This document shows, one piece after another, positions 51,634 through 64,000 of a stretch of 64,000 nucleotides of DNA. The DNA lies in NCBI RefSeq assembly GCF_044704955.1, contig NC_091995.1:49600001-49664000 (forward strand), written 5' to 3'. This DNA comes from Pristiophorus japonicus. Its lineage: Eukaryota. Each line of letters starts with the position of its first letter. Position 1 is the first letter of the stretch. Under the pieces are notes generated by a model. That model made no database searches and was not told the DNA's origin. It saw only the letters and a program-made list of their open reading frames with translations. Position numbers and translations under genes: made by a program.

Positions 51634-52125
51634 ATGCTGCTTGTTACTTTACTGAACATAAGAACATAAGAACATGGAACAGGAGTAGGCCATCTAGCCC
51701 CTCGAGCCTGCTCCGCCATTCAACAAGATCATGGCTGATCTGGCCGTGGACTCAGCTCCACTTACCCGCCTGCTCCCCATAACCCTTAATTCCCTTATTG
51801 GTTAAAAATCTATCTATCTGTGATTTGAATATATTCAATGAGCTAGCCTCAACTGCTTCCTTGGGCAGAGAATTCCACAGATTCACAACCCTCTGGGAGA
51901 AGAAATTCCTTCTCAACTCGGTTTTAAATTGGCTCCCCCATATTTTGAGGCTGTGCCCCCTAGTTCTAGTCTCCCCGACCAGTGGAAACAACCTCTCTGC
52001 CTCTATCTTGTCTATCCCTTTCATTATTTCAAATGTTTCTATAAGATCACCCCTCATCCTTCTGAACTCCAACGAGTAAAGACCCAGTCTGCTCAATGTT
52101 TACTGTGTGCCCACTGTCTCCTCTG
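51634..52125 (+). CDS. Leader (signal peptide) exon of the MHC class I-like gene, interrupted
   Basis: Joining 51634-51654 to 52098-52125 gives MLLVTLLVYCVPTVSS plus G, then a GTAAG donor in phase 1, matching the alpha1 acceptor. Confidence 0.6.
51655..52097 (-). mobile_element. 5'-truncated CR1 LINE inserted antisense in the leader exon
   Basis: Open ORF SRLGLYSLEFRRMRGDLIETF...WNSLP...GKWS and a (TTCTTATG)n tail. Confidence 0.9.
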
Positions 52126-52429
52126 GTAAGCAATTCAAACAGCTTATATCTGTGGGCAGTGTTTGAGGGGACCCCTGAGACTGACAGTATCATAAGATAA
52201 TATTGAGCGGTCCCTGGGCCTAGAGTATTTCATTGCCTTGGGTGTGTGTGAGCAATTCAGGGTAAGGATAATCCCTGTACAGGGGAGGGGTCACTGTCAG
52301 AAGTTGTGTTACAGATATGTTTGTAAAATCTTTGATCAAAACAGTTTTTTTAATGGACTGACAATTATTGTCAAGGCGCACACACAAAGAATAGGCATTT
52401 GGGCGTGAAGTATTAGAGCTGTACCTCAG

Positions 52430-52655: not shown

Positions 52656-53299
52656 ATTCCATATCCCAACATCCCTCTCCATTATAAATAACTGCTCCAA
52701 ATCGTCCCCTTTGCTCCTGTGGTGATGATGATAAATTTATGCCCTCCGGTTACTGACTCACCAAACAATGAGAAGTGTTGATTCTCTTTACTTGACCAAA
52801 CCTGAGAGTTTGGAGCCCTCTATCAGCTCCCCTCGACCTTCTCTGTTCCAGTGAAAATAATCCCAGTCTGTCCTCATAACACAACCCGCTCACAACCAGG
52901 GATCACCCGAGAAAATCTCTTCCACACCTTCTCCATGACCCTGACATCCCTCTGAACAAACGGTGTCCAACATTGGACACAATGTTCTAACTGTGATCTT
53001 TGTAATTCTCTACCCTAGAGGGCTGTGCATGGCCAGTCGATGAGTATATTCAAGACAGAGATCGATAGATTCTTGGGCACTAGGAGAATCAAGGGACATG
53101 GGAGGAACAGTTGAGTTGAGGTGGAAGATCAGCCATGATCTTATTGAATGGCGGAGCAGGCTCGAGGGCCGTATGACCTACTCCTGCTCCTAATTCTTAT
53201 GTTCAAATCAGTTTTAGCGTCAACCACTGCTAATTCCACTTTGGGTTACTTTACAATCTGTGGCATTTTTGAGACTGGTTTCTGTTTTTGATCTAGCAG

Positions 53300-53560
53300 A
53301 TTATCACATCCTGGCATTTTACTACCTCCTGAACCATGGCTGGGCCGAGCTGCCCGAGTACAGTTTGGTGGTGATGCTGGATGACTATCAGATCGCGTAT
53401 TTCGACAGCATGTTGCAGCGGACTGTGCCCAGACAGCGGTGGATGGCCAACTCCTTCCAGAGGGATCACTGGGACGCCATGGCTATCACAATGGCGGGCT
53501 TCCACGGCCTGGTCAAAGGAAACACCGAGATATTTTACCGCCAGCGCCAGGGTGCCTCGA
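53300..53560 (+). CDS. MHC class I-like alpha1 domain exon (261 nt)
   Basis: Acceptor TAGCAG|, donor |GTAAGT, phase 1/1. DYHILAFYY...LPEYSLVVMLDDYQIAYFDS...VPRQRWM...HWD aligns with class I alpha1 motifs (H3, D29-D30, FDS, PR..W, W60). Confidence 0.85.
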
Positions 53561-54994: not shown

Positions 54995-57900
54995 TGAATG
55001 GCGGCAGATTAGGAAAAGGGGAGGTGCAACGAGACCTGGATGTCATGGTTCATCAGTCACTGAAATTGGGCACGCAGGTACAGCAGGCGGTGAAGAAGGC
55101 AAATGGTATGTTGGCCTTCATAGCCAGGGGATTTGAATATAGCAGGGAGGTCTTACTGCAGTTGTACAGGGCCTTAGTGAGGCCTCACCTGGAATATTGT
55201 GTTCAGTTTTGGTCTCCTAGTCTGAGGAAGGACGTTCTTGCTATTGAGAGAGTGCAGCAAAGGTTCACCAGACTGATTCAAGGGATGGCTGGTGTGATGT
55301 CTGTAAGTGCTGTAAGCTTGTAATGCTTGTAGCTCCATACTGTGGATGTGACATATTGTGTACTGCAGAGTTATAATAAACAGATAGGCAGCTTCCGGAC
55401 CAAGCAGCCTCCATGTTAAGAGCTGTGTGTGTGTGCTCTGTGAAGATATCACAGTTGGCGACTGAGGATGGAGAGTTTTCGGATGCTTGAAGCTTAAATT
55501 TTGTTGGTGAAGGATTCAGCCACCCGACAGAAGACTTTGGAAGTTTCTGTCTTTGGAAAACAAAGCTACAAAATCCGAGGTAAACTACAGCACATGGTGA
55601 GAACAGCTAGAGTTTAAACATGGCAGGTGTAATCGGATATTTGGGTGAATATAGACATGACCAGGAACATTTTAAAGCATATGTGGATTGGCTAGAAATG
55701 GATTTCACTGCAAATAACATAATCGAAGTTCCAGACAATGCAGTCCAGAACCAGGCTGTGTTGGAACGGAAGAAAGCGATTTTCTTATCCGTGGCAGGTC
55801 CGACATTGTACGAAACCCTTGTAAATCTGCTTGTGCCTGACGAGCCAAAGGACACAACGCTTAAAGAGATTTTAACGAAGCTGGAGCAGCACTATAACCC
55901 CAAACCGTTAGAAATTGCTGAAAGCTATCGTTTCGGGATACGGAATCAAAAGACTGATGGAAGTATCAGTGATTACATCATAGCATTAAAAAAGCTATCG
56001 ATGCACTGTAATTTTGGGAACTTTCAAAACGGAGCATTACGGGATTGTTTTGTTTGTGGGGTGAAAAATGATGCGATCAGAAGGAAGTTATTGATGACAG
56101 ATGACTTGACTTTTGAGATTGCTTGTCAGACAGCGAGGTCAATGAGCATGGCCGAATAATATTCCCGAGAATTAAATAATGATTACGGTCATTAGTCAAC
56201 CGAGGTAAATCACCTGCAGGTTCAAAGTAAAAGACGGCCAGGGCCGAAAGTCTCAGAAACTGGAAATTCTACCAGAGCGTCGAAGTCGTGCTATAGGTGC
56301 CTGGGTCCTTAGTGTTTCTTCTGCAGAAAGACTGGGCATATTGCGAAGGCATGCCGACTGAAGGATAAACCAGCTTTTAAAGCTATGAGTCCAGCGTTCA
56401 AAGCTATGAGTAGTAATCCAAAGAGACTGCATGGCTTGGAAGAATAACAGCAGGATGAGGAGATATTAGAATTACACGTCATCAGGAGCACGAGTTTAAC
56501 GGGCAACGATTCGGAAAGTATCAAAATCCACATAGATGTTGCCGGATTCAAGATACCAATGGAAATTGACACGGGTGCCTCCATGAGTGTAGTACCGGAG
56601 TCACTGCACCGCGAAAAATTGCGTGATTTCGAACTGGAGAAATCCAAGATAGAGCTGCGAGGCTACTCTGGAGAGAAAATTCCTGTAGTAGGCTGTACCA
56701 CCGTACCGGTGAAATATAAAGATCAATTTCAGAACTTGCCTCTAATAATAGTGAAAGGAGACAAGACTGCTTTACTAGGAAGAAATTGGTTAAGCTCACT
56801 GAGGCTGGATTGGAATAAGATCTTCTCTGTGGAAGTGAGATTTTCATCAACGGATGAGGTTATCAAGCAGTATCCGAAGGTGTTCTGCAAAACGGGCAGT
56901 CCAATCCAAGGCTTCAAGGCGAGTGTTAGGATACAGAAGGACGCTAGATTGGTTTACTACAAGCCACGTTCCGTACCATATGCACTCAAAGAGAAAGTTG
57001 AGCAAGAACTCAAAAGGCTAGAGACTGAGAACATTATTTGTAAGATAGATCGATGTAATTGGGCTACACCCATTGTTGTTGTACCTTAGTCTGATGGTAA
57101 AGTAAGATTGTGTGGTGATTATAAGGTAGCCATAAACCAGGTTCCAGAGGGTAATGTCCCCAATACATTGCCTAATATAGAAGATTTGTTCACAACACTG
57201 ACAGGTGGTCAGATCCTCTCAAAACTGGATCTTACGAATGCCTACTTACAGCTTGAACTAGATGAGGAGACCAAGTCATGTTTGACTATAAACATTTATC
57301 TAGGCTTTTATCAATTTAATAGGCTACCGTTTGGAGTGTCTTCCGCCCCTGCCATATTCCAAGGAGTGATGAACCAGATTTTGCAAGGTATTGAAGGGGT
57401 AGTATGTTATTTAGAGGACATACTAATTTCAGCAACTAATTTCACCAAATAGGCAACTTCATAATAAGATATTGAATGAAGTCCTCAAACAGCTAGAGAA
57501 GCACAGAGTACGAGTGTCTGCTCATAAGTGTGAGTTATTTAAAAACTCAGTGGAGTACTTAGGGTACAGAGTAGACAAAGATGGTTTACATCCGACGAAG
57601 GAAAAATTGGATGCAATTAGAAATGTACCCACTCCCAGGAATGTCACTGAACGTCGTTCATTCTTGGGTCTTTTGAACTATTATGGGAAGTTCCTACCAA
57701 ATTTGGCTACAGTATTACTTCCACTGAATGAACTTTTGAAAAAACAGGTCCACTGGAAGTGGTCAAAAGAATGCGATCCAGCATTCAAGGAGTGTAAAAA
57801 CAAATTGGTAGAGAGCACCATGTTAGTCCACTATGACATATCAAAGGAGATTAAACTAGCATGTGATGCCTCTCCGTATGGAGTTGGGGCAGTAATCTCT

Positions 57901-60385
57901 CATGTATTGAGTAGTGGGGAGGAGAGACCAATTTCTTTTGTTTCACACACTCTCAGTGCCAGTGAGAAATTATGCGCAAATTGAAAGGGAAGCTTTGGCA
58001 TTAATTTTTGGGGTCAAGAAGTTTCTCAAATACTTGTATGGTCGTAAGTTTACTATCGTTACAGCCCGTAACAGCAATCCTCCATCCAAAGTCCCCAGTT
58101 CCAACATTAGCTGCAGCCCAAATGCAGAGATGGGCTTTGATTTTGTCAGCATATATATATGATATTGAATACAGACGATCAGCTGATCAGAGTAATGCTG
58201 ATGCAATGCCTAGATTGCCTTCCCCATCATAGAGTACACCTGATAGGGAAGAAGTGTTTTATTTTTCATACATTGATGAACTACCAGTCACAGCTGAAGA
58301 GATTGGTAGAGCAACCAAATGTGACCCCGTGATGTCAAAGTGTATGAGTAAATTGCAAATGGATGGCCAAACCAGGTAACAGACAAAGATACACATCCAT
58401 TCTTCATTCATAAGAATGAATTATCAGTAGATAAAGATTGTATCATGTGGGGTGCAAGAGTGGTTATACCAAAGAAATTCAGGTCCAAATTATTAGGAGA
58501 CCTCCATTACCAGCACCTGGGAATGTGCTTGACCAAGAGTTTTGCATGCAGTTATTTATGGTGGCCAGGTCTTGATAAAGATATAGAGTACATTGTGAGT
58601 CAGTGTACGACATGTCAATCAGTAAGCAAGCAACCACCACCAGTACCATTACAGCCATGGAAATGTGGCAAAGGCTACATATTGATTCTGCTGAGTTAAA
58701 TGGACAACAATTGTTCATTGTAATTGATAGCCATTCAAAGTGGGTTGAGGTGTTTCCAATATGGAAAATAACAACAAGTAAAACATTGGACATTTTACGA
58801 AAATTATTTTCTGCATTTGGCCTCCTTGAAGAAATTGTTTTGGATAATGGACCACAATTTCGTTCAGAAGAATTTGCACAATTCACAAGTGAAACATATC
58901 AAGGTTCCACCATACCACCCTGCTTCGAATGGTGCAGCAGAGCGCACTGTACAAATTGTCAAACGTACCCTCATAAAACAAATGTTGATCCAAATCCAAG
59001 AAAACATCAGTTGTCATTGGATCACAAATTGGCTAATTTTTTGATTACATATCGAAATACTCCTCATACAACTACTGGTAGAATGCCAGCAGAGTTGTTG
59101 CTCAAACGACAGCCACGAACCACATTCTCATTGTTAAAGCTAAATTTGGCACAGTCTGTAGAAGAGACACAAAATAGACAAAAAGAGAATCATGATAAAG
59201 GGAGACAAAAAGTGAGGAGTGAAATTAAACCAGAAGGTGAGAGTGAAGTGAAGAACCATCACCATAAATGGTTAAAGTGGTTACCCGGAAGAGTGGTGAA
59301 GATATTTGATAAAGATGTTTGATAATGGACAGGTTAGGGTTGTCCATTTTGATCATATTTTACCTACAGACATGGAAGGAGTTGAAGGTGGGAATGATTC
59401 AATTATTTCTGACTCATCAGATAGTTTTGATATACCAACAGCAAATCCTAAATCCAATGTACTGGAAACAAATCCAGGAGAGAATCAGAATGAAAGTCTG
59501 AGTCCAAGTCAGGGAAACAAAGAGCCTGAAGTTAGAGTGAGTGCAAATGAAAATCAAGGAAATTTCATGGAGGAAAATGTTCCTCAGGATGAGCCTCAAA
59601 TGAGTGTGAAATCAACACCATGTTTGGAAGGTTCTGTTCGAGAGCGAAGGTATCCTCTTCGAAACAGAAAACAAGTTGTAAAGTTAAATTTGTAAATATG
59701 TATAAAAATGAAGTTATTTATGATTTTTGTTATGATGGATTTTTTCATTAAGGAGGGAGAAGTGTGATGTCTAAGTGCTGTAAGCTTGTAATGCTTGTAG
59801 CTCCATACTGTGGATGTGGACGTATTGTGTACTGCAGCTGCAGAGTTATAATAAACAGGCAGCTTCCGAACCAAGCATCCTCCATGTTAAGAGCTCTGTG
59901 TGTGTGTGCTCTGTGAAGATATCACAGCTGGGCTGTCATATGAGGAGAGACTGGATCAACTGGGCCTTTATTGACTGGAGTTTAGAAGGATGAGAGGGGA
60001 TCTCATAGAAACATATAAGATTCTGACGGGACTGGACAGGTTAGATGCGGGAAGAATGTTCCCGATGTTGGGGAAGTCCAGAACCAGGGGACATAGTCTT
60101 AGGATAAGGGGTAGGCCATATAGGACTGAGATGAGGAGAAACTTCTTCACTCAGAGAGTTGTTAACCTGTGGAATTCCCTGCCGCAGAGAGTTGTTGATG
60201 CCAGTTCATTGGATATATTCAAGAGGGAGTTCGATATGGCTCTTACGGTTAAGGGGATCAAGGGGTATGGAGAGAAAGCAGGAAAGGGGTACTGAAGGAA
60301 TGATCATCCATGATCTTATTGAATGGCAGTGCAGGCGCGAAGGGCCAAATGGCCTACTCCTGCACCAATTTTCTATGTCTATGTC
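54995..60385 (+). mobile_element. CR1 3' fragment split by a Gypsy provirus
   Basis: [13 protein letters not shown]...RLIQGMAG at 55292 resumes at 59932 as LSYEERLDQLG. Confidence 0.9.
55293..59926 (+). mobile_element. Full-length degenerate Ty3/Gypsy provirus in MHC intron 2
   Basis: LTRs 55293-55453 and 59763-59926 (TGTGAT...ATCACA). TSD GCTGG, PBS TGGCGAC(T)GAGGATGG (tRNA-Ser-like), PPT AGGAGGGAGAAG. Gag, protease IDTGAS, RT YLED, RNase H CDAS, integrase LHID...DNGPQF. Many stops and frameshifts. Confidence 0.95.
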
Positions 60386-62481: not shown

Positions 62482-62757
62482 GTGTTTTCTTTGTCCAGGG
62501 AATGTGTGGCTGTGAGGTGATGGATGATAATTCCACAGACGGGTTTATAAAGTTGGGATATGGTGGGGAGGATGCGTATGTTTTTGACAAGGACACATCG
62601 AGTTGGATGGCGCTGAATCCAGAGTTCCGGGCGTTAGCAGAGCGGTGGAATGCCAACTCCTTCATGAACAAATACTTCAAGGCTCTGTTGGAGAAGGACT
62701 GCGTGAAATGGCTGCTGACATACGTCGAGTGTGGGCAAGGAGCACTGCAGAGGAGAG
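62482..62757 (+). CDS. MHC class I-like alpha2 domain exon (276 nt)
   Basis: Acceptor TTTTCCCCCAG|, donor AG|GTACAT, phase 1/1, canonical length. QGMCGCEV...GYGGED...FDKDTSSW...ERWN...CVKWLLTYVECG..ALQRR retains the C101-C164 pair, W133, W147, W167 and Y171. Confidence 0.92.
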
Positions 62758-62994
62758 GTACATTGTGGGACCGGCGACTGGAGGGAGTGTTCCCGACGGC
62801 TCAGGTGGGGAGTGTGGTACAGACTGGGTTTTTATTTCCGGCTCTGTCCCGAGCCAGCTGTTCTTGGACAGGGTAGCAGTAAAGTGGCACTGCAACTGGC
62901 CTCAGTACCCTTTGCTTCGGGGCAGCGGGGGAGGGGAGGTGGTGTAGGAATTCGGGCAAGTGACCTAAATCCGATTATTTACCCGGTAAGTAAG

Positions 62995-63375
62995 TAAAAT
63001 CTACGCTGACACTCCAGTGCAGTGCTGAGGGAGTGGCTGCACTGTCAGAGGTGCCGTCTTTCAGATGAGACGTTAAACCGAGGCCCTGTCTGCGTCAGGT
63101 GGATGTAAAAGATCCCACGGCACTATTTCGAAGAAGAGCAGGGGAGTCACCCGTGGTATCCTGGGGCCAATATTTATCACTCAATCAACATCTTGAAACA
63201 GATTATCCGGGTCATTATCACATTGTTGTTTCTGGGAGCTTGCTGCACGCAAATTGCTGCTGCGTTTCCCACATTACAACAGTGACTCCACTCCAAAAGT
63301 ACTTAATTGGCTGTAAAGAGCTTAGAGACATCTGGTGGTCATTAAAGGCGCTATATAAATGCAAGTCTTTCTTTC
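62995..63375 (+). mobile_element. DeuSINE-like SINE
   Basis: GCTGACACTCCAGTGCAGTGCTGAGGGAG...GTGCCGTCTTTCAGATGAGACGTTAAACCGAGG...GGCGCTATATAAATGCAAGTCTTTCTTT. Confidence 0.8.
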
Positions 63376-63529
63376 TTTCAGTCACCTTGGCTGGAAAGTG
63401 CATGCATGTTGACATCGGGTGAGGATAGGATTAGACTAAGCTATAAGACCCCCTTGGTTGAATAGCTTCCTCACTGTGTCGGCCCACTCGTGAACGCTGG
63501 GTACTTGTGTGTGGTACAAGAGTGTGGCT

Positions 63530-63910
63530 TTACATAGAATTACATCGAATGTACAGCATAGGAAGAGGCTATTCGCTCAACTGGTCGATGCTGGCGATTA
63601 TGCTCCACTCGAGCCTCCTCCTACCCCAGTTCAGCATATCCTTCATTCTTTTCTCCCTCACGTGCTTAGCTAGTGTCCCTCAAAGTATTTGTGTTATTTG
63701 CCGCAACTACTCCCTGTGGTAGCGGGTTCCACATTCTCACCACTCTCTGGGTAAAGAGGTTTCTCCTGAATTCCCGATTGGATTTATTAGTGACTATCTT
63801 ATATTGATGGCCTCTAGTTCTGGTCTTTCCCACAATTGGGAACATTCTCTCTGCATCGACTCTATCAAATCCCTTCATAATGTTAAACACCTCACCCCCC
63901 AGCCTTCTCT
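63530..63910 (-). mobile_element. CR1 3' fragment
   Basis: IMKGFDRVDAERMFP...TRGHQYKI...FTQRVVRMWNPLP. Confidence 0.85.
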
Positions 63911-64000
63911 TGTTCTCTTTCCTCTTGCTGTATCTCAGCATCAGTCACCTGCCTCCATCGAAGAAAGTTGATGGTGGGGGGGCAGAGGAAAGGAACAAAT

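What the first reader, a model, noticed from the sequence alone, without database searches (positions are those of the whole stretch)
51634..52130. Leader exon of the MHC-like gene is cut in two by an antisense CR1 insertion
Seen: ATGCTGCTTGTTACTTTACTG, then 443 bp of antisense CR1, then GTTTACTGTGTGCCCACTGTCTCCTCTG|GTAAG. Removing the insert gives a 16-aa signal peptide, MLLVTLLVYCVPTVSS, in the phase needed for alpha1. With the insert, translation stops at 51667 and the downstream half has no in-frame ATG (TAA at 52077). The alpha1 and alpha2 exons are undamaged and the CR1 fragment's ORF is still open. This suggests a recent, possibly polymorphic knockout, or rescue by another first exon. 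Caveat: TTTACTG occurs on both sides and could be a TSD, in which case the ATG was already out of frame.
Basis: partly seen in the sequence, partly recalled or inferred. Interest (0 to 1): 0.75.

Follow-up and report, generated by a model that had tools for sequence, protein, structure and literature searches.

The report
Retrotransposon hit in dead MHC duplicate
A young 438-base retrotransposon fragment splits the signal-peptide exon of a duplicated shark immune (MHC class I-like) gene, but this copy also has a stop codon further downstream and an intact copy lies nearby, so this is likely ordinary decay of a spare gene copy.

Summary
The insertion is real. An antisense, 5'-truncated CR1-type LINE fragment (51657-52094, 438 bp, AA on both sides) splits the leader exon; 7 of 7 other leader copies in this genome lack it. 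The true leader has 17 aa, not 16, and both TTTACTG copies are native, not a target-site duplication. The insert looks young (nearest scored copy 98.2%; 0 private substitutions).

It did not knock out an otherwise intact gene. The alpha3 exon, 0.6 kb past the window's end, has an in-frame TAG before its second cysteine. Read-derived contigs confirm it, and depth suggests both haplotypes carry it. The copy's coding changes fit neutral drift (12 N: 6 S). It is one of 7 duplicates (plus an orphan leader) of a non-classical class I lineage seen once per species in 11 other sharks and rays; only the copy at C19:44.97 Mb is intact.

Verdict: ordinary birth-and-death pseudogene. Polymorphism and expression could not be tested. 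A more interesting side finding: eight intact, intronless, classical-type class I copies on C3.

The parts
51340..51633 (+). Upstream/5' region of the gene, conserved among paralogs; the window copy has a private 17-bp deletion near 51410
   Evidence: 98.4% to the intact copy over 51410-51656
51634..51656 (+). 5' half of the leader (signal peptide) exon: ATG, codons 1-7 and the AA of codon 8
   Evidence: 23-nt exact match to the intact paralog's leader exon
51657..52094 (-). 438-bp 5'-truncated CR1-type LINE fragment: last ~111 codons of ORF2, 3' UTR and an 8-nt tandem-repeat tail facing the ATG side. Brings TAA 51667 into the ATG frame and TAA 52077 into the phase-1 frame
   Evidence: best copies 97-98% identical (40 scored of 914 candidates)
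52095..52125 (+). 3' half of the leader exon (AAT codon 8 to the phase-1 base), donor GTAAGC at 52126; AA 52095-52096 repeats AA 51655-51656
   Evidence: 1 synonymous mismatch to the intact paralog
53300..53560 (+). alpha1 exon, open (tandem acceptor also at 53297)
   Evidence: Pfam MHC_I weak, E 0.0019, below cut-off; PDB 9ch4_A E 2e-22; 98.1% to intact copy, 5 non-synonymous changes
55293..59925 (+). LTR retrotransposon (protease, RT, RNase H; several stops) inside a CR1 fragment in intron 2. The ~5.4-kb block is absent from the intact copy; its 5' part (to 58118) is shared with the 52.48-Mb copy, marking the two as sisters. End coordinate approximate
62482..62757 (+). alpha2 exon, open
   Evidence: Pfam MHC_I E 6e-17; 98.2% to intact copy
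62758..64000 (+). Start of intron 3, which runs out of the window. Beyond the window lie the alpha3 exon (G000:C19:49664573-49664842 = L028:573-842; in-frame 3-nt deletion and TAG at C19:49664782, before the second Ig cysteine, 58 nt from the exon end) and the open TM/cytoplasmic exon (from G000:C19:49672945; 1 difference from the intact copy in its first 122 nt)
   Evidence: exact-match read contigs over the TAG in runs X2 and X4

Best explanation
This is a broken duplicate of a non-classical shark MHC class I gene with two separate disabling lesions, a CR1-type LINE fragment in the leader exon and a stop codon in the alpha3 exon, and the LINE likely landed after the copy was already free of selection. 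Shown: the insertion, its junctions, its absence from paralogs, the stops, one intact paralog and several other broken ones. Inferred: (a) the fragment arose by target-primed reverse transcription from the repeat tail, with early 5' truncation joined at a 2-3 nt microhomology; (b) any transcript gives only an 11-aa peptide from the native ATG and would likely be degraded by nonsense-mediated decay; (c) order of events: local duplication, an LTR element in intron 2 of the ancestor of this copy and the 52.48-Mb copy, neutral decay including the alpha3 stop, then the CR1 insertion; (d) the function is likely carried by the intact copy at C19:44.97 Mb, so the insertion has little or no phenotype.
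For: 7 of 7 other leader matches lack the insert. In 10 of 11 nearest CR1 copies the element continues with AAT at the truncation point, the same letters as the target site. TAG and 3-nt deletion in alpha3; exact-match contigs in 2 of 3 DNA runs of one sample; depth ratio 1.47-1.48 against 1.61 expected if all three alpha3 loci are on both haplotypes and 3.2-4.2 if the TAG is on one. Changes assigned to the window lineage: 12 N: 6 S on 661/254 sites, p = 0.60 against neutrality, p = 0.005 against an assumed omega of 0.2. Intron divergence from the intact copy is 3.7% in unique pieces and 5-10% along the gene, while the insert is 1.8% from its nearest copy with 0 private sites. Other broken copies: 48.54 Mb (TGA in alpha2, no TM exon in the four tiles searched, 40 kb beyond alpha1), 52.48 Mb (24-bp deletion removing the ATG), 44.91 Mb (1-nt deletion in alpha1), 57.07 Mb (leader, no alpha1 in 20 kb), C23 (ATA start, 2 stops). 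Only 3 alpha2 and 3 TM matches genome-wide. One protein per species in 11 other elasmobranchs.
Against: The order of the two lesions is inferred from divergences, not seen. The omega of a working copy was assumed; the intact lineage's own count is 4 N: 3 S (omega about 0.5, 7 changes), which does not itself show strong constraint. Alpha3 differs from the intact copy far more than alpha1, alpha2 and TM do (15 of 270 against 11 of 659 sites, Fisher p = 0.003), which uniform decay does not predict. The depth argument uses two runs of one sample, probably the assembled one, and contigs that may merge bubbles (in X1 only a paralog-type path was listed). No expression data. The N-masked stretches 49023-49926 upstream could hide another exon.
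Confidence: 0.85

Rival explanations
1. The CR1 insertion was the primary hit on a still-working second copy; the alpha3 stop and deletion came afterwards.
For: Alpha1, alpha2, TM and the proximal upstream region are only 0.8-1.9% from the intact copy. The intact lineage's own N:S does not prove strong constraint.
Against: The insert has 0 private substitutions in 438 nt, while alpha3 has 11 window-lineage substitutions plus an indel in 270 nt. Alpha1+alpha2 window-lineage changes are 6 N: 1 S (p = 0.008 against omega 0.2), and some are shared with the sister copy that lacks the CR1.
Confidence: 0.08
2. After losing alpha3, the copy went on working as an alpha3-skipped alpha1-alpha2-TM molecule (all exons are phase 1, so the skip is in frame) until the recent, perhaps still segregating, CR1 insertion knocked it out.
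For: Divergence from the intact copy is concentrated in alpha3 (p = 0.003 for all sites; p = 0.02 for synonymous sites). The alpha1, alpha2 and TM exons and their splice sites are intact.
Against: The excess in alpha3 is also synonymous, which points to gene conversion or rate variation rather than protein-level selection. Alpha1+alpha2 changes are mostly non-synonymous (6:1). The alpha3 splice sites are intact, so nothing in the sequence favours skipping.
Confidence: 0.04
3. The leader is rescued by another first exon or by the near-cognate CTG at 52089, giving a short leader and some protein.
For: An in-frame CTG follows TAA 52077. The upstream region is largely intact, and masked N stretches could hide an exon.
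Against: No phase-1 ATG lies after 52077. ATG 52096 is out of frame and stops within alpha1. 0 of 5 GT/AG pairs tested give an open in-frame leader. A CTG start gives only 12 residues. Any product would still stop in alpha3 before the second cysteine and the TM segment.
Confidence: 0.03

Closest known systems
MHC class I pseudogenes formed by birth-and-death evolution (example: newt MHC, PMC12863176, passages read)
   Same: Recent local duplicates in a class I cluster, most broken by stops, deletions, truncations or insertions, beside an intact copy.
   Different: Here in a shark non-classical lineage that shows one protein per species elsewhere; one lesion is a LINE inside the leader exon.
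[quoted passage not shown]
   Same: Class I fold (Pfam MHC_I + C1-set), found in sharks and rays, one protein per species in 11 other species, lies in a large class I cluster, lacks most classical peptide anchors.
   Different: Expanded to about 7 copies in this genome, 1 intact. Which named lineage it is could not be fixed: no named reference sequences were available, and the two lineage papers were not held.
PDB 9ch4_A ('Ig-like domain-containing protein')
   Same: Best solved-structure match to alpha1 (E 2e-22) and to the intact paralog (E 5e-72).
   Different: Only about half the alpha1 residues are identical (read from the alignment), so it is probably a related lineage, not an ortholog; the tool gives no lineage name.
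CR1-clade LINEs of sharks (HER1 listed as the LINE partner of the shark HE1 SINE in PMC3747384, table passage)
   Same: 5'-truncated 3' end of an RT-coding LINE with an 8-nt tandem tail and no long TSD; abundant near-identical copies (914 candidates).
   Different: Clade assignment rests on recalled features (tail type, ORF2 C-terminus); no comparison with a named HER1 or CR1 sequence was possible.

Membership tests
MHC class I heavy-chain gene | Leader, alpha1, alpha2, alpha3 (C1-set), TM/cytoplasmic exons joined in phase 1 | tested here: met
   All five exons located with AG/GT sites; intact paralog P0002 passes Pfam MHC_I and C1-set cut-offs.
Functional MHC class I gene (this copy) | Open frame from ATG through a signal peptide into alpha1 | tested here: not met
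   TAA 51667; 440-nt addition; no in-frame ATG after TAA 52077.
Functional MHC class I gene (this copy) | Complete alpha3 Ig domain with both cysteines, leading into the TM exon | tested here: not met
   TAG at C19:49664782 before the second cysteine.
Functional MHC class I gene (this copy) | Transcribed and spliced mRNA | not testable with these tools
   No run on record as RNA was listed.
Classical class Ia (UAA type) | Eight peptide-anchoring residues (7, 59, 84, 143, 146, 147, 159, 171; numbering recalled) | tested here: not met
   Read from alignment A2: P0002 has F, H, Q, L, R, W, L, Y, so 2 of 8 are kept.
Named shark class Ib lineage (UDA, UFA or UGA) | Single or low copy number across sharks and rays | tested here: met
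   One protein each in 11 other species among 13 hits at E <= 1e-60; clusters at 90% identity could hide close copies.
Named shark class Ib lineage (UDA, UFA or UGA) | Clusters in a tree with named reference sequences | not testable with these tools
   No hit carried a lineage name; papers not held; supplements of PMC10751288 were not opened and may list them.
CR1-clade non-LTR retrotransposon insertion | 3' end of an RT-coding ORF2, 3' UTR, tandem-repeat tail, 5' truncation | tested here: met
   Insert matches residues 452-562 of an RVT_1 ORF; 10 of 11 nearest copies extend further into ORF2.
CR1-clade non-LTR retrotransposon insertion | Empty orthologous or paralogous site | tested here: met
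   7 of 7 paralogous leaders are uninterrupted.
CR1-clade non-LTR retrotransposon insertion | RT phylogeny placing it in CR1 rather than L2 | not tested
Segregating (polymorphic) insertion | Both filled and empty alleles at this locus in the species | tested here: inconclusive
   No second allele among the 8 matches in the assembly; the read lay was swamped by CR1 contigs, and only one sample had DNA runs holding half the words.

The most novel reading that the evidence does not exclude
This copy had become an alpha3-less (alpha1-alpha2-TM) non-classical class I molecule made by exon skipping, and a very young CR1 insertion that may still be segregating knocks it out, giving a natural null allele of an unusual shark MHC-like receptor.
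Probability: 0.04. Interest if true: 0.6.

Novelty: new member of a known kind. Interest (0 to 1): 0.13.

Why it matters
It matters little as biology: it is one more broken duplicate in an MHC class I cluster, and it shows that a lineage reported as single- or low-copy can expand and decay locally. In practice it is a clean junction marker for dating duplications in this cluster, and a warning that exon-level searches overcount this lineage (5 alpha1 matches at 94% or more, 1 intact gene). It would matter more only if CR1-free alleles were expressed as an alpha3-skipped protein.

Tried and rejected
TTTACTG as a TSD: rejected, both copies stand in the empty paralogs. The 16-aa reconstruction: rejected, it drops Asn8. 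Rescue by ATG 52096 or by cryptic splicing: ATG out of frame; 0 of 5 donor/acceptor pairs open (only GT donors before the first stop and AG acceptors at 51980-52110 were tried). Alpha3 stop as an assembly error: rejected, exact contigs in X2 and X4. Expression: no RNA holder listed; runs X6-X8 of unrecorded kind covered almost only repeats; this blank is no evidence either way. Genotyping the insertion from reads: uninformative, 145,308 contigs of X1, mostly CR1, were laid and table 8 was cut. The tree of the copies was poorly resolved (bootstrap 31-68), so the sister relation rests on the shared intron-2 element. The phase-1 translations used an exon end one base off and were redone. In one search the L031 row was cut at wrong coordinates; searches give it. 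The first TM check had no positive control and was redone. Naming the lineage: paper searches gave descriptions only; PMC8454915 and PMC7002201 are not held. No signal-peptide predictor was available; only hydropathy was computed. Earlier scan notes: none. No structure or complex prediction was run, as it could not change the verdict.

Full report
Setting. The window is G000:C19:49,600,001-49,664,000 of a 5.9-Gb genome. The gene's relatives are shark and ray proteins, and P0002 is identical over its exons to a copy at C19:44.97 Mb of this genome. Upstream of the gene the long ORFs of the window look like repeats and retroelements (by eye), and no other exon of this gene lies in the window.

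The observation. The ATG is at 51634 and the donor GT at 52126. A search with the left flank gave 8 places including this one. All 7 others have an uninterrupted leader. In the intact copy it is 52 coding nt: 17 aa plus one phase-1 base. The window matches it for 23 nt (to 51656) and again from 52095, so the insert is 51657-52094 (438 bp) with AA on both sides, 440 nt extra in all. In 10 of 11 nearest copies the element continues with AAT at the truncation point, the same letters as the target. The junction is therefore a 2-bp duplication or microhomology; the two cannot be told apart. Both TTTACTG are part of the empty exon, so that caveat falls. P0005, from another shark, starts with nearly the same leader. 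The other orthologs' predicted N-termini differ or are missing, probably from gene prediction (inference).

The element. Its antisense ORF matches residues 452-562 of an RVT_1-bearing LINE ORF in the window, and it ends in an 8-nt tandem tail. 914 candidates were found and 40 scored, at 97-98% identity. It differs from the majority of the 11 nearest at 5 of 438 sites, none private to it, whereas each neighbour has 2-5 private sites (biased, since neighbours were chosen for likeness). It is young: at most about 0.9% per lineage. With the epaulette shark rate of 7e-10 per generation (PMC10587355, passages; a borrowed rate) that allows anything from now to about 10 million generations.

Effect on the leader. 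Translation from 51634 stops at 51667. In the phase-1 frame TAA 52077 is followed by no ATG; ATG 52096 is out of frame; 0 of 5 GT/AG pairs restore a frame. An in-frame CTG at 52089 would give a 12-residue stub.

Alpha1 and alpha2 are open. Alpha3 (C19:49664573-49664842) has a 3-nt deletion and GAG to TAG, 58 nt before the exon end and before the second cysteine. Contigs of runs X2 and X4 match L028:707-855 with no difference; X1 listed only a paralog-type path. The three runs are one sample, perhaps the assembled one, so this rules out a consensus error but is not independent population evidence. The depth ratio of the two paths (1.47-1.48) is near the 1.61 expected if all three alpha3 loci are on both haplotypes, and far from 3.2-4.2 for a heterozygous stop (rough). 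The TM exon is open.

The family in this genome. 44.97 Mb is intact. 48.54 Mb has TGA in alpha2 and no TM exon nearby. 52.48 Mb has a 24-bp deletion that removes the ATG and no alpha2. 44.91 Mb has a 1-nt deletion in alpha1 and no alpha2. 57.07 Mb has a leader and no alpha1 in 20 kb. C23 has an ATA start and stops. C11 holds an orphan leader with a dead donor. DNA searches found 3 alpha2 and 3 TM matches. The window copy and 52.48 Mb share an intron-2 LTR element absent from the intact copy, at about 3% divergence from each other. So both sisters lost their leader, by different events. In other sharks and rays one protein per species was found (11 species). The lineage keeps 2 of 8 classical anchor residues (numbering recalled), so it is non-classical. 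PMC10751288 (section 9, passages) and PMC12562908 (passages) describe single- or low-copy lineages UDA, UFA and UGA; I could not tell which this is. Supplements of these papers were not opened and may settle it.

Selection and order. Window-lineage coding changes are 12 N: 6 S. This fits neutrality (p = 0.60) and not an assumed omega of 0.1-0.3 (p = 3e-5 to 0.04). Had the very young CR1 been the first hit, most of the lineage's history should show constraint. Against this reading: omega for a working copy was assumed, the intact lineage shows 4 N: 3 S, and alpha3 is more diverged than the other exons (p = 0.003), which needs gene conversion, rate variation or a period of alpha3-independent function. 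The last is my novel case. It is weak because the alpha3 excess is also synonymous and alpha1+alpha2 changes are 6 N: 1 S.

What is known. Broken class I duplicates are the textbook result of birth-and-death evolution (PMC12863176, passages, for newts). A search for this kind of lesion (9 papers, listings only) showed no paper on this locus, and none was expected. Earlier scan notes held nothing.

Verdict. It is best read as a late hit on a duplicate that is also broken in alpha3, beside an intact copy. Interest 0.13. The intronless class I cluster on C3, seen in passing, deserves its own look.

Noticed in passing
G000:C3:316.6-319.3 Mb (L063:4041-5105 minus; L064:4116-5180 plus): Eight full-length, stop-free, intronless MHC class I ORFs (leader to cytoplasmic tail, 354-355 aa, 99-100% identical) plus one broken copy, spread over 2.7 Mb off the C19 cluster; the two fetched lie behind a minisatellite. 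The one aligned keeps 8 of 8 classical anchor residues (numbering recalled). The best exon-wise relatives on C19 are only 64-82% identical, so this looks like an old retrocopy kept intact and then amplified. PMC10751288 section 9 says no elasmobranch class I genes were found outside the MHC; one paper search (listings only) showed no report. Expression and assembly correctness untested.
   Followed up: partly
G000, many contigs, e.g. C7:107425891, C14:156675316, C8:211079267: Dozens of 5'-truncated processed copies of classical-type class I mRNA (alpha3-TM-tail in one piece, about 65-77% identity, many with stops): class I transcripts were retroposed often in this genome.
   Followed up: no
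G000:C19:52478751-52478990 (L035): The sister copy lost its start codon through a 24-bp deletion, independently of the CR1 insertion, and stops matching the window near 58118, inside the shared LTR element.
   Followed up: yes
window 55293-59925: LTR retrotransposon nested in a CR1 fragment, apparently with a 5-bp target duplication; the two LTRs differ by 4 substitutions and 5 gaps over 176 columns; ORFs broken by stops.
   Followed up: partly
G000:C11:188194775 (L037): Orphan copy of the leader exon and the start of intron 1 on another contig, with a dead donor and no alpha1 within the 10 kb fetched.
   Followed up: partly
G000:C19:50926375-50926561: A third TM exon (97%) on the minus strand with no alpha2 or alpha3 match nearby; may be the displaced 3' end of another copy.
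   Followed up: no
G000:C19:40.2-51.5 Mb (L007-L018): A second expanded class I-like lineage (alpha1 32-50% identical to this one), several copies with stops, interleaved with this family.
   Followed up: no
L039 (intact copy, TM/cytoplasmic exon): The intact copy's cytoplasmic tail is lengthened by a coding minisatellite (416 aa against about 350 in orthologs); the repeat differs in length in the window copy.
   Followed up: no
window 53297-53300: Tandem NAGNAG acceptor at alpha1; the source annotation of P0002 uses the upstream AG (extra Ala), that of P0005 has no such residue.
   Followed up: no
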